In this document: positions 42,001 through 48,000 of the stretch, piece after piece
How positions within the stretch are numbered: position 1 is the stretch's first letter
Layout: the number at the start of each line of letters is the position of its first letter
From: Syntrophales bacterium
GTDB lineage: Bacteria > Desulfobacterota > Syntrophia > Syntrophales > PHBD01
Assembly: GCA_963668175.1 (NCBI GenBank)
Contig: OY764159.1
Span: 3,552,001-3,616,000, forward strand
Length of the DNA stretch: 64,000 nt
Direction of reading: 5' to 3'
Program-made: the position numbers

Positions 42001-45000
42001 CCATCGCCTTGAGAAACATATGGCATCTCTTGTCCTCATACGTTCCGTCGCATCATCAGGAAAACAGCGAACGGCCGACAAGCGAACCGACCACGAAGCT
42101 GTCACCGGAGTTATTTCAAACGACCGAGGAAATAAGAGAGACGGTAGAGGGGTTTGTGGAGTTCGGCGTTAGAAATTTCCTCTGGCACCGGCGGAATCCG
42201 CTGCTGCTCCAATGGCGGCGCGGCGTCAGGGGCATGGAATACTCGACCTTGATGGCAATGACAAGAGAGATTCTGGCATATGCCGCCATGCCGCATCATG
42301 ATCGTGAGCGGGTATCGAACAGGCAGCCGGGCTGCATGACGGAGACACAACTGAGAGATGCTCTCGCAGACATCAAGAAAAAACTGATCCCTTTTATCGA
42401 AAAGGCCGAGAAGCTCCTCGTCCGAGAACGGCTCTACATGCAATCCTCTTGCCTGTCGCCTTTGAACAGCGGGGACGAGGAGATCAACCGCCTCAGAAAG
42501 GAACTTTTCGCATCGGCGATGAGTCACGGAGGCGAGTTCAAATGCCTTATCGATGCGGTTGACCGCCTGCTCCTGAGACTGATGAAAGAAACCGGCACCA
42601 TTCAGCACCTGCCCGCCGGGAAGCCGCCTGACTTACCTGCCGCTGAATCTTGAGGACTGCTGCGGCTGCGGTCTTCACGGCCCCTTTGGGCCATCCGTCC
42701 TGTTCTTTCGCCGCCGGGGCGTCCGGATCGCGAGGGAGCGGAACGCGTCGCGGCTGTCCGTTTCCTTGATGCGTTTCATCATGTCGTCAATTTCTTCCTC
42801 ATCGATACTGCCGCGCTCTTCCATAAAATACCATACGGCGCTGCGGCCCGAATGCTTGCCCAGGACGATCCGGCCCGATCTTTATCGGGACGCAAATGAA
42901 AGCGATGTCCCGTTTGTCCAACAGCCGACAAATACCCTCCGGGTCCGGAAACCACGGACAGTCGACAATGCGGGAAGCAATAACAGGTATGCCCGTGCCG
43001 ATCGCTTTGCCCGCAATACCTCACCCATGCGGGAACGGCCCTTGCCATGTTCCTCAGACAGGAGGACTCCTCAATGATACATATTCTTCAAAAAGGAAAA
43101 TCGCGGGATGCTCCGTATCCTATATTGATTGACGCGGAGGAAAATAAGACGCTTTTATGGATGAGTTCGACATTTCTCACGCATGGTCGATTGCGCCCGA
43201 CTCTCTTTAGTCCGGCTGCTTGAGACATGAAGGATATTTCAAGGGTATTTAAAAACGACAGGACTTGCGGCACCAAAAGCGGTATATTACTTTTATTGCG
43301 GGGGCATGGGTCGGCTCGCGACGGCCCCGAAAAACGATTGTACGTGGTGCAGATGGCGGCTTTCAACGAACAACGCATCGATGTGACGCAAGGGAATATC
43401 TGGACCGGCATCTGGAGACTCTCCTGGCCGATGCTGGTCATCATGATCTTCAGTTTCCTCGTCGGCTTTACCGACGTCTACGTCGCCGGGTTCTTGGGTC
43501 CCGACGTCCAGGCGGCCGTCGGTTTCGCCACGCAGATATTCTTCCTCGTCGTCATCATTGCCAATGCCATCGCCATCGGCACGCTTGCATTGATATCGCG
43601 CGCCATCGGCGCCGGGGACGGGGAACGGGCGGTCGCCGTCGCCAAACAGTCCCTCATCCTCAGTTTCCTGATCGCCGTCGCCATCACGGCCGTCTGTCTC
43701 CTATTTTACCGCAGCATCATTGCCGTTGCGGGTTTCCCGGAGCCCATCAGGATCATCGCCGAAACATTCATCAGAATTTTTGCCTTCGCCCTGGGAGCCC
43801 ATTACATTCTCATCGTCTCCAACGCCGTCTTCCGCGCCAGCGGCGAAGTGAACAAGCCGCTCGTCACGATGATCATCATCTGCATCGTCAACATCGTCCT
43901 CGACTTCTGCCTCGTCTTCGGCATCGGCCCCTTTCCCAGACTAGGCTATGCCGGGATCGCTTTTTCAACCGCCATCGCCACCATCTCTGGAACCTCCGTC
44001 AACCTTCTTTTTCTTGCCAAAAGTCCGCGTTGGCGGGCCGTCTACGGCAGGCCGTTCGCCCTGTCACTGGAGACCGTCAAGACGATCCTCGGCATCGGAT
44101 GGCCTGCAGCCTTTCTGCAGATCGCCTGGAACCTGACCAGCATCGCCCTCTACAATATCCTGGGGAGACTTCACGAATCGAGCATCGTCGCCCTCGCGTC
44201 CCTCACGAACGGCCTGAGAATCGAAGCGATTATCTATCTTCCCGCTTTCGCCCTCAATATGGCCGCATCGGTCGTTACGGGCCAGAATCTCGGCGCAGAA
44301 GATCCTGACCGCGCTGAAAGGATGTGCTGGAAAATAGCCCTGGCGGGTGTCGGGATCAGCGGCGCTATGGCCCTGGTGATCTTTGTCCGGGCGGAGCAAT
44401 GCGCCGCCGTCTTGACTGCAGACCCGGCCGTCATCGCGGAAACGGCGAGGTACCTCAGGTACAATATGATCGCCGAACCCTTCCTCGCTTTGAGCACGGT
44501 CATGGGAGGGGGCCTGCAGGGGGCCGGCGACACCCGGGGGACCATGTGGGTGATCGTCGTCTCCATGTGGCTGGTCCGGCTTCCGCTCGCATCGTTTCTT
44601 GCGATTGTGATGGGATGGGGAGCACCGGGCGTATGGACCGCCATGCTCGTTTCCATGATCTGCCAGAGCATCATGATGGCCTGGTGGTTCAGGCTGGGGC
44701 GATGGAAAAAGTTAAAATTGCATTAAGGACGCGGAAGGGATTATTCTTTCTTGAGAGATTCCAAGGCGGGAAGAGAGGAGGACTCCATGCTGACACTGTT
44801 CAATTCCCTTGGTAAAAAGATGGAAGTATTTACGCCCGTCAACGCCGGTGTCGTGAATATCTTTACTTGCGGCCCTTCGGTTTACCAGCGGGCCCACATC
44901 GGCAACCATCGCACCTTTCTCTTCGAGGACATCCTGGTCCGATACCTGGAATACTCGGGATACAAGGTCCGCCGGGGCATGAATTTCACGGACATTGAGG

Positions 45001-48000
45001 ACAAGGCCCTGATCGAGGCCCATAAGAGAAAGATGCCTCTTGCCGCCCTGACTTCAGCGAACATTGAAACCTTCCTGGGCGAGATGAAGGCGCTCAGGAT
45101 GAAGGTGCCCGATTATCTGCCCCGCGCCTCGGAGCATGTGGACGAGGCCCTCCGGATCATCGACCGGCTCATCGAAAAGGGCGTCGCCTACCGCCACGGC
45201 GGCAACGTCTATTTCGATCCGCTGAAATTCCCCGGTTTCGGGAAGATCTACGGCCTCGACATGACGACATGGCCTGCCAGGAGGGTCCGATTCCACCGGG
45301 ATACATACAACGGGCTCCGCTGGAACCGGGGCGATTTCATCCTCTGGCACGGCTGCGGGACCGCGGACCGCGTCTGCTGGGATTCGTCCGTCGGCAGCGG
45401 CTGGCCCGCCTGGAATATCCAGGACCCGAGCATGGTCGGCCACTATTTCGACGAGACGTTGTCCGTCTATTGCGGCGGCATCGACAATCTCATCCGCCAT
45501 CACGATTACTCCGCCGCCGTGCTCGAATCGATCCGGCCCTATCCGATGGCGAAGTTCTGGCTTCACGGCCAGCATCTCTTCGTCAACGGCAGGAAAATGT
45601 CCAAGAGTACCGGCAATCTCCTCTACACGGACGAACTCGAAAAGCAGGGATATAACATGGAGGAAATCCGCTTCTTCCTCGTCTACGGCCATTATCGGAA
45701 TCGTATGAATTATCGGGATCGGACTATGGAAGAAAGGGCGAATCTTCTGAGGAACATCAAGAAACGGATTGGAGCGATAGGCGCGGTGGCCGGCGGCAAG
45801 GCGGAAACGCAGGGGGATGCAGGCCTCAAGTTGAAAGAGATTTTCAGGATACGCATGGACGACGACCTCGATGTGAAGGGAGCCGTCGACGGCATCGGCG
45901 ACATTCTGATGAAAACGTATCCCGATCGGCTTAAGGCAGGTGAAGCGACATCCCTTATGGAGGCCGTCAAGGAAATCGACGGCGTCCTGCAGGTTCTGCT
46001 TTAAGGAACGTTTTACGGATCGGCCGATGCGACGGCACTGCTGCAATAATATCTACCGGGGTCGATACGGAACGGAATGTAAAGGACGGGGGCCTATCGT
46101 CATGGGCCCGACGAGGGGGCTCGCTCATCGATCTTGACTTCGGGCGGCTTGGGCCTGTTTTTTCTCTGATTCACCAGGTTCTGCCTGTACTGAACGTAGG
46201 CATCGCGGACCGCTACATAGGGGTCGATGGCGGCCTGTTTGAGAGATTCATAGTCTCCCAGCGTGAGGGAGACATCGTTCAGCTTCTGATAGCTCCTGAC
46301 GGGCAGCCAGAAATACCACGGTTCAAGATATGAAACGGGATAGAGGAAATACTCCCCTACAAAACCCACCGAATCGCGCGGACTGGAGGGCCCGAGCACC
46401 GGCCACATGATGAAGAACCCATGTCCGATCCCGTAAACGCCCAAGGTCTGCCCGAAATCGACATCCTGCTTTTTGAGATTGATTTCCGGCAAGGAGGCGG
46501 GATCGAAAAAGCCTCCGATCCCCATCGTTGTATTGACAACGAACCGCCCTAATTCCGTCCCCGTGCATTTAAGGTCCGCCTGCAGGAGGCAGTTGGCAAA
46601 GCGGATCGGAAAGTAGAGGTTGGAAAAGAAATTCTGGATGCTGACCCTGAAGCCTTCGGGAGCAATTATATTGTACCCTTGGGCCACGGGCTTCATCACC
46701 CAAAAGTAGAGTCTATCATTGAAAGTGAACATGGCCCGGTTGAAGGATTCGATGGGATCGGAAACCGGTGCAGCCAATGCATTCTCATCCTGCACGTCTT
46801 TCTTCGCCGGGACGTCCTGGGCGGCTGGGCCGACGTCGTCTTCCTCTTTATAATCGCTTAAGTCCTGTTTTTCCTCCCGGCCAGACTTCTGGGCGGTCGA
46901 GGAAGCTTCTTTTACACCGACGGCTTCGCCCTTGGGGTTCACCGCCGTGCCGGACGGGTCTGGCGTAAGCGTTTCCTGCTTTGCAATAACCGGCGCCGGC
47001 TGGGCAGGGGACGGCTGCGGAAGAGGCGTACGGTTAGGGTCATGGGCGCATCCCGTGGCGAGAATAAACGGCAGAAGCATCATTCCGAGTAAACGTTTCA
47101 CCAAGGGGATGTCCATATCAGTCTTCACTTCCGTGAAACATCGTCCACGTCAATCCTTTTGCGATTTAACTTTATCGCGTAGGATCTGAAGCAGTTGATC
47201 GGGTGAATTTTTTGCCAGGATGTCGTTGAACTGGGTTCGGTAGTTCATGACCAGGCTGATGTTCTCAACGACCACGTCGTACACCTTCCAGGTGCCGTTT
47301 GCAAGAATCATCCGATAGTAAATAGGGACCTCCTTCGAAGCGGTGACAATCTTGGTCTGGACCTCGACCTGGTTGCCGGAGAGAGGCAACTCTTTCGTGA
47401 ATACGACTTTCTCGTTGCTGTACGAGAGGATTCTGTCGGCATAAGCCTTTTCCAGGATCTGGTGGAAGAGATGAACGAATTCCTTCCTCTGGGATTCGTT
47501 AAGCCTGTTCCAGTTCTTCGCCAGAGTCCGCTTGGCGAGTTCGACTTCATCGAACATGGCATTGTATATGACCGTCAGTTTCTGTATTTTCTGTTCCTTC
47601 GCCGAAGCCGCCTTGAGCTTCGGATCGCGGAGCACTTCAAATACTTTATTGACGTTGACCTGAACGGTATCCAGCGGCACGCCGCCATATACCGGCAACG
47701 ACGCTAAAAAGACGACGATAACGATCAATCCTGCAACCCGCGTTTTCATGAATGACCCCCTTTTTGCAATTCCTTGACTATTGCTGCTGCTTCTTCACGT
47801 CCCCAAAGGCATACTTGGCTATAAGATCCGAGATATTCACGGCCGGCTGCGTTTCGGTGATGGTATCTCCCGGTTTGAGGAGGTTGCCCGCCCCTCCGGG
47901 TTCGATGCTGAGGTACATGTCGCCGATCAGCCCTTCCGTCTTGATGGAGGCAATAGCATCGTCATAGATATTGATGCCCTTCTTAATCCTCATTTCAACT

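What a model noticed while it worked through the whole genome (the two positions that open the first line are those of the whole stretch)
43227..46004. CysRS-derived paralog without anticodon-binding end and with a rebuilt zinc site, paired with a MOP-family flippase
Besides a canonical CysRS and the CysK-CysRS fusion, the genome has g03244 (405 aa), a class-I CysRS catalytic core. It keeps HIGH-like (HIGN) and KMSKS motifs but lacks the last ~80 residues of CysRS. Two of the cysteine-selecting zinc-ligand positions are changed (WHxEC to WNIQD; FPHHENE to IRHHDYS). It follows, in the same direction, a MATE/MurJ-like transporter gene (g03243). Boldest reading: it is not a tRNA synthetase but an ATP-dependent ligase (MshC-like in logic) that adds an amino acid or thiol to a molecule exported by the partner flippase. 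New: this paralog class and its flippase link have no assigned function.
Evidence so far: Domains: tRNA-synt_1e 3.5e-70 over aa 15-316, no DALR_2 or CysS_C, and no NCBIfam CysRS hit. The best Swiss-Prot hits are 31-33% identical, to chlamydial CysRS. Motifs: a three-way alignment with g01133 and the CysRS half of g04075 shows the motif changes and the missing C-terminus. Distribution: same-length homologs (55-62% identity) occur in 5 of 40 other Syntrophales genomes at least 97% complete. Neighbours: in 2 of 4 loci read, the ORF just upstream on the same strand is a MatE/MurJ protein. In neighbours.tsv, MurJ lies within two genes of tRNA-synt_1e in 2089 of 131,718 genomes that have both.
(Added by a program. 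Inside this text positions count along the whole contig: contig position 3,552,001 is position 1 of the stretch shown here. "Call 12" and the like, gene names such as g00115 and contig names such as C1 are that model's own, and its searches are not shown. The text may have been shortened before it was handed on; [...] marks where a part breaks off. The agent that wrote the report below was given it as the finding of a first reader that could run no searches.)

Follow-up and report, generated by a model that had tools for sequence, protein, structure and literature searches.

The report
Remodelled short CysRS paralogue beside MATE pump
This gene is an intact member of a widespread but unstudied enzyme family of anaerobes that descends from cysteinyl-tRNA synthetase, keeps the ATP chemistry, has a rebuilt metal/amino-acid pocket and no anticodon-reading tail, and in one branch of the family travels as a pair with a MATE efflux pump; what it joins to what is still unknown.

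Summary
Window 44787-46004 (+) encodes a 405-aa CysRS-derived protein. It keeps HIGN and KMSKS and ends exactly where the C-terminal anticodon-reading domain of CysRS would begin. It carries WNIQD/IRHHDYS in place of WHIEC/FPHHENE. A MATE gene ends 60 nt upstream on the same strand. The genome also has a canonical CysRS and a CysK-CysRS fusion.

It belongs to a monophyletic family (C209D and E208Q in 78 of 78 members) found in Syntrophales, Nitrospirota, Syntrophobacteraceae, Bathyarchaeia and other anaerobes. The family is nested among tail-less DPANN-archaeal CysRS that keep the zinc site.

It is not MshC, and it is not CysRS*: there is no selC*/selB*.

The MATE link is real but confined to one branch. 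MATE lies directly upstream in 19 of 38 loci of that branch and in 0 of 42 of the other. The two genes co-diverge (Mantel r 0.90). Elsewhere the upstream gene is CNNM or a peroxiredoxin. The partner is a MATE efflux pump, not a MurJ/Wzx flippase.

The acceptor is unresolved: a basic, highly conserved CP domain and retained R42/K73/R168 favour RNA, whereas changes shared with MshC favour a non-tRNA acceptor.

This scan found the same family three times before on other DNA.

The parts
43353..44726 (+). MATE-family efflux transporter gene (457 aa from the ATG at 43353; the longest ORF starts at 43227)
   Evidence: Pfam MatE 1.1e-47. TIGR00797 matE scores 231 bits against a 147 cut-off; MurJ scores only 48 bits. 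Orthologues of 52-73% identity lie directly upstream of the paralogue in 19 of 80 species loci and in 15 of 20 loci from the order.
44727..44786 (+). 60-nt intergenic spacer with a GGAGG ribosome-binding site (44777-44781); no terminator-like hairpin in it
   Evidence: Sequence read. The terminator scan found none between the two genes.
44787..46004 (+). CysRS-derived paralogue (405 aa). It has a Rossmann core with HIGN and KMSKS, a basic CP domain, an SC-fold and a helix bundle. It has no C-terminal alpha/beta anticodon domain. The pocket reads C28 / W209-N-I-Q-D213 / R237-H-H-D-Y-S242 in its own numbering.
   Evidence: AF2 model: pLDDT 93.5, pTM 0.93. Foldseek TM 0.88 to CysRS 8qhp and 1u0b, and 0.82-0.84 to MshC.
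46141..46167 (+). Terminator-like hairpin plus T-run 137 nt after the paralogue's stop; possible end of the two-gene unit. It lies inside the 3' end of the convergent mlaA gene.
   Evidence: This is a consensus match only.

Best explanation
g03244 is a functional member of an old, horizontally mobile family of CysRS-derived adenylate-forming enzymes.

Shown: it keeps the ATP/adenylate machinery and the alpha-amino-acid contacts. Its amino-acid/metal pocket has been rebuilt in one fixed way, to Cys28-Asp209-His234, with the Glu238 ligand lost as in MshC. It lacks only the anticodon-reading C-terminal extension. Its CP (acceptor-binding) domain is its most conserved and most basic part.

Inferred: it activates cysteine or a close thiol analogue on a re-liganded metal, which may be less oxidation-sensitive or not zinc. 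It then transfers the amino acid to an anionic acceptor held by the basic CP domain. That acceptor is most probably the 3' end of a tRNA or other RNA, recognised without its anticodon, as in tail-less DPANN CysRS and in CysRS*.

The enzyme works as a single self-contained gene that is deployed in stress-type operons. In the Syntrophales/Nitrospirota branch it is co-transcribed and co-inherited with a MATE efflux pump. That pump is an operon companion in a stress or detoxification module, not the exporter of the enzyme's product.
For: Family and selection. One search found 143 relatives, of which 80 loci were kept. Among 78 members, C28, W205 and T68 are invariant, KMSKS is kept in 76 of 78 or more, C209D and E208Q occur in 78 of 78, and H206N in 76 of 78.

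Pocket-focused change. Of 77 positions that are at least 85% conserved in 106 canonical CysRS, the family keeps 60. The 17 changed positions lie almost all at 204-210 and 224-242.

RNA-type acceptor.
- The family is monophyletic (SH-aLRT 100) inside a clade (96) with four tail-less CysRS-like proteins that keep C209; the three with organism names are from Iainarchaeota/Micrarchaeota, two of them annotated as cysteine--tRNA ligase.
- A Methanoperedens MAG has a tail-less enzyme (417 bits, above cut-off) as its only CysRS-family hit. So loss of the tail predates the pocket change and is compatible with tRNA charging.
- The family keeps 11 canonical-invariant residues that three true MshC have lost. 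These include the basic R42, K73 and R168.
- R168 adjoins the CP1 motif that reads the first acceptor-stem base pair (PMC5389517, passages).
- The CP domain is the most conserved domain (0.657 mean pairwise identity against 0.469 in canonical CysRS). It carries net charge +6 against 0. Segment 158-182 carries +5 against -2.
- No enzyme partner is conserved across the family, and the family is mixed between Bacteria and Archaea. This fits a universal acceptor.

Stress setting. 34 of 78 loci have AhpC, OsmC or SOD within five genes. HSP20, HPF, CDF and CNNM also recur.

MATE as companion.
Against: Nine canonical-invariant positions (T115, Y152, K185, S210, H224, N237, E238, Q241, S242) are changed in both the family and the tRNA-independent MshC. 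Positions 238, 241 and 242 are unconstrained in the family. This could mean that the canonical A76 site is gone.

Every genome checked keeps a canonical CysRS (7 of 7). This genome has one ordinary tRNA-Cys (G1:C72, U73, GCA) and no orphan tRNA. So no dedicated RNA substrate is visible.

No tRNA gene for Cys or Sec lies in the window or in any of the 80 loci.

The invariant C209D, H206N, E208Q and P233R changes argue that the amino acid or the metal is no longer that of CysRS.

Charge and conservation arguments are indirect. No coordinates, docking or biochemical data were available. The roles given to R42, K73, R168 and K185 are inferred, not known to me from a structure paper.
Confidence: 0.4

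Rival explanations
1. The enzyme is a tRNA-independent, MshC-like ligase. It adenylates cysteine or another amino acid and joins it to a small-molecule amine or thiol, for example a low-molecular-weight thiol or a conjugate. In this branch of the family the product or its conjugates would leave the cell through the MATE pump.
For: The architecture and end point are the same as MshC, and the E238 ligand is lost as in MshC (E238G). There are nine shared departures from canonical CysRS, including K185, N237, Q241 and S242. Both have an insertion in the same CP loop relative to E. coli CysRS. Thiol-dependent peroxidases lie next to the gene: AhpC is directly upstream in 15 loci and OsmC is nearby in 14. 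This would suit a thiol cofactor. The MATE and paralogue genes co-occur, co-diverge, and are both split by frameshifts in genome G012.
Against: MshC keeps GWHIEC intact, while this family does not. The family scores 159 bits against 485 on the MshC model and sits inside CysRS, not with MshC. No other biosynthetic enzyme is conserved beside it, although it crosses phyla and domains as a single gene. A small neutral acceptor does not explain a +6 CP domain or the retention of R42, K73 and R168. MATE is missing from 42 of 42 loci of the other subclade and from 6 of 23 paralogue-bearing genomes of the order. It also stands alone in 9 genomes, with SOD, a CDF transporter or a CoA-binding gene in the paralogue's place.
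Confidence: 0.3
2. The enzyme is a back-up cysteinyl-tRNA synthetase adapted to stress or to a different metal. This is a special case of the best explanation. It would still make Cys-tRNA(Cys), reading only the acceptor end. Its metal site, with one cysteine ligand fewer, would tolerate oxidants or zinc scarcity in sulfidic habitats.
For: C28, H234, W205 and T68 are kept. The hosts are anaerobes, many of them sulfate reducers (dsrAB lies in the window). The surroundings are AhpC, SOD, OsmC, HSP20, CDF and CNNM genes. There is a precedent: CysRS paralogues in Zur regulons (PMC2770081, passages). Tail-less CysRS appear to serve as the only CysRS in some archaea.
Against: The Zur-regulated paralogues keep their zinc ligands. 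No COG0523, ZnuABC or Zur gene was seen beside any locus. The invariant H206N, E208Q, P233R and N237Y changes go beyond a ligand swap. The loss of K185, Q241 and S242 is shared with MshC.
Confidence: 0.15
3. The protein does not transfer an amino acid. It might be a cysteine persulfide synthase, as reported for CysRS/CARS (recalled, not checked here). It might make Ap4A-type alarmones. Or it might be a regulatory or sensor protein.
For: K73 and the KMSKS lysines are kept. The setting is one of stress and sulfur metabolism.
Against: HIGN, GGxD, KMSKS and the alpha-amino contacts are conserved as strictly as in working synthetases. The CP domain is the most conserved part. That is unexpected if no acceptor is bound.
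Confidence: 0.1

Closest known systems
Canonical cysteinyl-tRNA synthetase (TIGR00435; PDB 8qhp, 1li5/1u0b), HIGN-type lineage
   Same: The fold is the same (TM 0.88). It shares HIGN, KMSKS, C28, W205, H234/H235, T68, the SC-fold HYR motif and the helix bundle. 60 of 77 canonical-invariant positions are kept.
   Different: It scores below the family cut-off (286.5 against 340). It has C209D, E208Q, H206N, P233R and N237Y, and E238 is lost. It has no C-terminal alpha/beta anticodon domain. Its CP domain is basic with extra residues. It always occurs beside a canonical CysRS.
Tail-less CysRS of DPANN archaea (Iainarchaeota, Micrarchaeota) and of a Methanoperedens MAG
   Same: These are the nearest relatives on the tree (clade support 96). 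They have the same length (405-416 aa), the same end point and HIGN.
   Different: They keep GWHIEC and HHENE, score above the cysS cut-off (354-393 bits) and are annotated as the organism's CysRS. One of them (P0149) is intermediate, with N206 and Q208 but C209.
MshC, the mycothiol cysteine ligase (TIGR03447; PDB 3c8z, 8hfm)
   Same: It is also CysRS-derived, about 410 aa long, and ends at the same column. E238 is lost. K185, N237, Q241 and S242 are changed. It has an insertion in the same CP loop.
   Different: MshC keeps C209, H206 and E208, but has lost R42, K73 and R168. The window protein scores only 159 of the 485 bits required. MshC is actinobacterial and is not on the same branch.
CysRS* of Desulfobacterales (Mukai et al. 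2017, PMC5389517)
   Same: [quoted passage not shown]
   Different: CysRS* lies downstream of selC*-selB* and is rare. Here there is no tRNA gene for Cys or Sec in the window or the 80 loci, and no SelB-like neighbour among 1227 ORFs. The genome has one SelB, one tRNA-Sec and one tRNA-Cys. The CP1 motif is TWPA, not PTVS. No CysRS* sequence could be fetched for a direct alignment.
Zur-regulon CysRS paralogues of beta/gamma-proteobacteria (Haas et al. 2009, PMC2770081)
   Same: They are extra CysRS copies tied to metal stress (passages).
   Different: They keep the zinc ligands and sit with COG0523, ZnuABC or FolE2 genes. None of these was seen here.

Membership tests
Canonical CysRS (TIGR00435) | Score at or above the curated cut-off (340 bits) | tested here: not met
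   286.5 bits. Family representatives score 278-316 bits. The host CysRS-type representative P0134 scores 456 bits.
Canonical CysRS (TIGR00435) | Zinc/cysteine pocket C28, C209, H234, E238 with W205-H206 (residue roles recalled from Newberry 2002, which is not held) | tested here: not met
   C28, W205 and H234 are kept. C209D occurs in 78 of 78 members and H206N in 76 of 78. E238 is replaced by N, T or S. These positions are 100% conserved in 106 canonical representatives.
Canonical CysRS (TIGR00435) | C-terminal alpha/beta anticodon-reading domain | tested here: not met
   The protein ends at '...VLQVLL', aligned to canonical '...VLGLL'. The host CysRS runs 85 residues further.
Canonical CysRS (TIGR00435) | HIGH and KMSKS ATP motifs | tested here: met
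   HIGN is invariant and KMSKS is kept (76 of 78 or more at each position). N is the usual residue at this position in this CysRS lineage, in 85 of 106 representatives.
Canonical CysRS (TIGR00435) | Charges tRNA-Cys with cysteine | not testable with these tools
   This needs an aminoacylation assay.
MshC (TIGR03447) | Score at or above the curated cut-off (485 bits) | tested here: not met
   159.1 bits.
MshC (TIGR03447) | Intact Cys-Zn pocket (GWHIEC) with E238 replaced | tested here: not met
   Three MshC above cut-off have GWHIEC and HHEMG. The window protein has AWNIQD and HHDYS.
MshC (TIGR03447) | CysRS core plus helix bundle, no anticodon tail | tested here: met
   Both end at the same alignment column.
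CysRS* (Mukai 2017) | Gene downstream of selC* tRNA and selB* | tested here: not met
   No tRNA-Cys or tRNA-Sec gene lies in the window or the 80 loci. No SelB-like ORF is among 1227 neighbours.
CysRS* (Mukai 2017) | Genome encodes selC* tRNA-Cys(UCA) with A1:U72 and a second SelB | tested here: not met
   The genome has 50 tRNAs, with one tRNA-Cys(GCA, G1:C72, U73) and one tRNA-Sec. One SelB scores above cut-off.
CysRS* (Mukai 2017) | Lacks the anticodon-binding domain; CP1 motif changed (PTVS) | tested here: inconclusive
   The tail is missing and CP1 is changed, but to TWPA (family consensus K-W-P-K), not PTVS. No CysRS* sequence was in hand.
MATE efflux transporters (partner gene) | TIGR00797 / PF01554 above cut-off | tested here: met
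   231 bits against 147; MatE 162 bits.
MurJ/Wzx lipid-linked-glycan flippases (partner gene) | Best match to a flippase model | tested here: not met
   PF03023 scores only 48 bits as a secondary hit over half the protein. No NCBIfam MurJ hit was found. The best named relatives are EmmdR/YeeO, SolL and NorM.

The most novel reading that the evidence does not exclude
The family is a new aminoacyl-ligase specificity born from CysRS. Its fixed Cys-Asp-His pocket (with N206, Q208, R233, Y237) would bind a non-cysteine substrate, such as a persulfide, selenol, sulfinate or homologue, or would use a metal other than zinc. Its basic CP domain would load that substrate onto an RNA 3' end or another universal anionic acceptor as part of an oxidative/metal-stress response of anaerobes. 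That would be a synthetase-like activity with no described counterpart.
Probability: 0.2. Interest if true: 0.85.

Novelty: new variant of a known kind. Interest (0 to 1): 0.6.

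Why it matters
CysRS has only two described offshoots, MshC and CysRS*, in the 2022 review I read in passages (PMC9437257). 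This would be a third. It is far more widespread than CysRS*: 143 species genomes in two domains, and more than 120 90%-identity protein clusters (each at 59% identity or more to the query) in metagenomes. It is under strong constraint, and its selectivity-determining metal site has been rebuilt in one fixed way.

Finding its amino acid, metal and acceptor would do two things. It would show how a synthetase that selects its substrate through a zinc-thiolate bond can be re-tooled. It might also reveal an unknown stress function of uncultured anaerobes (Bathyarchaeia, Syntrophales, Nitrospirota).

The tail-less DPANN relatives also give a natural series: full CysRS, then tail-less CysRS, then an intermediate (P0149), then the remodelled family. 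This series can be used to study the transition.

Tried and rejected
- Riboswitch, T-box or other RNA leader. Rfam found 0 matches at E up to 1 in window 40500-46500. In 18 related loci it found only three ordinary tRNAs.
- Shared operator upstream of MATE. A 10-mer search with one mismatch over 27 upstream regions found nothing common. It found only a GGTAGAATA -10-like box in the Nitrospirota loci.
- 'Transplanted zinc ligands' (H188, C190, C197). These are invariant or near-invariant in the 76-sequence alignment. But C190 and C197 are absent from family representatives P0124, P0127 and P0133, so the idea was dropped.
- C225, E71 and HIGN as family marks. All three are common in canonical HIGN-type CysRS.
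- Link to SepRS. No SepRS was found in 5 of 5 paralogue-bearing genomes.
- Genomic context of the nearest tail-less relative, P0135. The scan returned only 35-51% identical, mostly canonical, CysRS loci.
- Expression.
- Papers. Newberry 2002 (PMC126036) and Tremblay 2008 (PMC2628295) are not held. The residue roles in E. coli CysRS and MshC are therefore recalled.
- Literature searches for this family found no description of it. They cover only the held open-access library.
- Pseudogene or neutral duplicate. This is rejected by the invariant catalytic motifs across 78 members. The exception is genome G012, where the gene is split.
- My first ORF caller missed some MATE genes (for example in L023) and picked a wrong-strand ORF for L088. 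MATE counts were redone by tblastn, and L088 was dropped from the tree.

Full report
WHAT IS THERE

Two same-strand genes fill the reported interval.

The upstream ORF is listed as 43227-44726. It most likely starts at the ATG at 43353, giving 457 aa. This matches orthologues of 452-466 aa that align from residue 1-10. It is a MATE efflux protein: MatE scores 162 bits and TIGR00797 scores 231 bits against a 147 cut-off. The best named relatives are EmmdR/YeeO, SolL and NorM. The MurJ match is a 48-bit secondary hit.

Sixty nucleotides downstream, after a GGAGG site, the ATG at 44787 opens a 405-aa protein that ends at 46004. No terminator-like hairpin lies between the genes. One lies 137 nt after the second gene.

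Downstream on the other strand is an Mla operon. Upstream are dsrAB and a YeiH-like gene.

The 405-aa protein matches PF01406 (1.8e-69). It matches TIGR00435 cysS at 286.5 bits, below the 340 cut-off, aligned to model positions 1-401 of 466. MshC scores 159 bits against a 485 cut-off.

The genome has three PF01406 genes: a 489-aa canonical CysRS, an 812-aa CysK-CysRS fusion, and this one.

Aligned with E. coli CysRS, it keeps C28, HIGN, T68, W205, H234/H235 and KMSKS. It has H206N, E208Q, C209D, P233R, E236D, N237Y and E238S. It stops at '...VLQVLL', aligned to canonical '...VLGLL', so only the C-terminal alpha/beta domain is missing.

The naming of C28, C209, H234 and E238 as zinc ligands and of W205 as a cysteine contact is recalled from Newberry et al. 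2002, which the library does not hold. These positions are 100% conserved in 106 canonical representatives.

- HIGN is normal for this CysRS lineage (85 of 106 representatives).
- The helix bundle, which AARS Online lists as the class-Ia anticodon-binding domain (PMC11580382, passages), is retained.

IT IS A FAMILY, NOT AN ODDITY

The word-indexed search found more than 120 clusters at 59-100% identity, nearly all 401-433 aa. They are named only 'cysteinyl-tRNA synthetase' or 'class I tRNA ligase family protein'.

In one-genome-per-species contigs there are 143 relatives. The best 80 come from Syntrophales, other Thermodesulfobacteriota, Nitrospirota, Syntrophobacteraceae, Desulfobacterales, Bathyarchaeia, Thermoplasmatota and Methanocella.

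Over 78 members the signature is fixed:
- C28, W205 and T68 are invariant.
- E208Q and C209D occur in 78 of 78.
- H206N occurs in 76 of 78.
- N237Y occurs in 77 of 78.
- E238 is N, T or S without preference.

Of 77 positions that are at least 85% conserved in 106 canonical CysRS, the family keeps 60. The 17 changed positions cluster at 204-210 and 224-242, that is, in the amino-acid/metal pocket.

The AF2 model is confident (pLDDT 93.5, pTM 0.93). It is closest to CysRS (TM 0.88 to 8qhp and 1u0b) and next to MshC (0.82-0.84).

WHERE IT COMES FROM

An exhaustive HMMER search found five clear full-length family representatives (P0124-P0127, P0133) and a partly degenerate one, P0130, then a drop to canonical HIGN-type CysRS at 30-38% identity.

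I built an IQ-TREE quick tree of 64 rows. I left out L088 (a wrong ORF), the long-branch P0174, and every second family and canonical row to save time. In it:
- The family is one clade (SH-aLRT 100, stem 0.52).
- It sits in a clade (96) with four other tail-less CysRS-like proteins that keep C209. A FastTree of 103 rows agrees.
- Three of those four come from Iainarchaeota and Micrarchaeota, two of them annotated as cysteine--tRNA ligase; the fourth, P0135, is an unplaced JGI metagenome protein.
- Three of the four score above the cysS cut-off (354-393 bits).
- P0149 is intermediate, with N206 and Q208 but C209.

A Methanoperedens MAG has a tail-less enzyme (417 bits, ORF of 416 aa) as its only CysRS-family hit.

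So loss of the tail came first and is compatible with being a working CysRS. The pocket change came later.

The host's own CysRS is of the other (HIGH) type. None of 8 other genomes of the host's family has the paralogue, while 23 of 151 genomes of the order do. Bacterial and archaeal members interleave in one subclade. The gene is therefore an accessory that moves horizontally, not a recent duplicate.

WHAT IT IS NOT

It is not MshC. Three true MshC (662-676 bits) keep GWHIEC, and the family sits inside CysRS.

It is not CysRS* (PMC5389517, passages and supplement legends):
- There is no tRNA gene for Cys or Sec in the window or in any of the 80 loci.
- No SelB-like ORF is among 1227 neighbours.
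- The genome has one SelB, one tRNA-Sec and one ordinary tRNA-Cys.

I could not obtain a CysRS* sequence for a direct comparison.

There is no SepRS in 5 of 5 carriers. All 7 carriers checked keep a canonical CysRS.

THE TRANSPORTER LINK

By tblastn, a MATE orthologue (52-68% identical) lies directly upstream on the same strand in 19 of 80 loci. All 19 are among the 38 loci of the Syntrophales/Nitrospirota subclade. None is among the other 42 loci, where L044 has a distant MATE downstream.

In a sample of 151 genomes of the order:
- 23 have the paralogue and 26 have the MATE orthologue (56% identity or more).
- 17 have both, 6 the paralogue only, 9 MATE only, and 119 neither.
- These genomes are kin, so this is not an independent test.

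Of 20 further paralogue loci fetched, 15 have MATE adjacent.

Pairwise distances of the two proteins correlate (Mantel r 0.90, 27 pairs, 0 of 2000 permutations as high). Any two co-inherited neighbours would also show this.

In the 9 MATE-only genomes there is no trace of the paralogue. The gene in its place is a CoA-binding protein, an SOD or a CDF transporter.

In G012 both genes are split by frameshifts. This is either joint decay or assembly error.

In the other subclade the directly upstream gene is CNNM/CorC (14 loci, Syntrophobacteraceae) or an AhpC-type peroxiredoxin (15 loci, Bathyarchaeia). 34 of 78 loci have AhpC, OsmC or SOD within five genes. HSP20, an HPF-CSD fusion, MscS, MFS and CDF also occur.

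My reading is that the pair is a long-standing cassette in one branch. The unifying theme of the family's surroundings is stress and efflux, not a flippase.

WHAT THE ACCEPTOR MIGHT BE

The evidence points both ways.

For an RNA/tRNA acceptor:
- The nearest relatives are tail-less CysRS.
- The CP domain, whose CP1 motif reads the first acceptor-stem base pair in CysRS, is the family's most conserved domain (0.657 against 0.469 mean pairwise identity in canonical CysRS). It has gained charge (+6 against 0; segment 158-182, +5 against -2).
- Of the canonical-invariant residues, 11 that MshC has lost are kept by the family. They include R42, K73 and R168.
- The gene moves alone between domains, so its substrates should be universal.

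For a non-tRNA acceptor:
- Nine canonical-invariant positions are changed in both MshC and the family: T115, Y152, K185, S210, H224, N237, E238, Q241 and S242. Positions 238, 241 and 242 are unconstrained in the family.
- The family and MshC both have extra residues in the same CP loop.
- No dedicated tRNA is visible.

The amino acid is likewise open. C28, H234, W205 and T68 argue for cysteine or a close analogue. The invariant D209, N206, Q208, R233 and Y237 argue for a different ligand or metal.

I put about 0.4 on an anticodon-independent RNA-directed ligase, including about 0.15 for a stress- or metal-adapted back-up CysRS. I put 0.3 on an MshC-like small-molecule ligase and 0.1 on a role without transfer.

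LITERATURE

In the held library, searches found no description of this family. The 2022 review (PMC9437257, passages) lists only CysRS* and MshC as CysRS paralogues. Zur-regulated CysRS paralogues are known but keep their zinc ligands (PMC2770081, passages). Subscription papers are not covered.

EARLIER SCAN NOTES

Notes e1-981208, e1-5775503 and e1-6365472 describe the same family on three other genomes. They reached the same general verdict. This report repeats that finding on new DNA. It adds the tail-less DPANN sister group, the position-by-position comparison with MshC, the charge and conservation shift of the CP domain, the CysRS* exclusion, and the test of the MATE link.

Noticed in passing
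window 48244-49503 (-), within the Mla operon 46100-50360 (-): The MlaF-type ABC ATPase (NF008809, 202 bits) carries a C-terminal GGDEF-like domain (PF00990, 31 bits, residues 254-358). This is an unusual fusion inside an mlaFEDCA-type cluster.
   Followed up: no
L002 421-2859 (+) = G000:C1 about 4519478-4521916; relatives L093, L094, L100, L101: The CysK-CysRS fusion (812 aa) is itself non-canonical. It has HIGS, KMSRS and FPHCENV (H235C, E238V), but keeps WHLEC and the anticodon tail. Fusions of 770-801 aa and CysRS-like proteins of 886-889 aa in other carrier genomes form one clade with it (support 100). 5 of the 6 carrier genomes searched whole with PF01406 have such a form.
   Followed up: partly
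L221 1801-4455 (genome G012, single 2.9-Mb contig): The MATE gene and the adjacent paralogue are each split into two ORFs by a frameshift. This is either joint decay of the pair or indel errors in the assembly.
   Followed up: no
L225 (genome G158, Methanoperedens MAG); proteins P0137, P0154, P0149: Tail-less CysRS (405-416 aa) with intact zinc ligands appear to be the only CysRS of some DPANN archaea and of a Methanoperedens MAG. P0149 (Micrarchaeota) has N206 and Q208 but C209, a possible intermediate toward the remodelled family.
   Followed up: partly
L212 4487-5794 (-), L215 4512-5654 (-): In genomes that have the MATE orthologue but no paralogue, a baeRF-family (release-factor-like) gene lies just upstream of MATE. 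An SOD, a CDF transporter or a CoA-binding gene follows MATE.
   Followed up: no
window 37057-40927 (-): dsrB (537 bits) and dsrA (574 bits), the dissimilatory sulfite reductase genes, lie next to a 528-aa YeiH-family putative sulfate exporter homologue.
   Followed up: no
window 41286-42653 (+) and 42766-43077 (+): A 455-aa ORF has only weak BPL_N/GATase_3 matches, and a 103-aa ORF has no family match. Both lie directly upstream of the MATE gene. Their relation to the operon is unknown.
   Followed up: no
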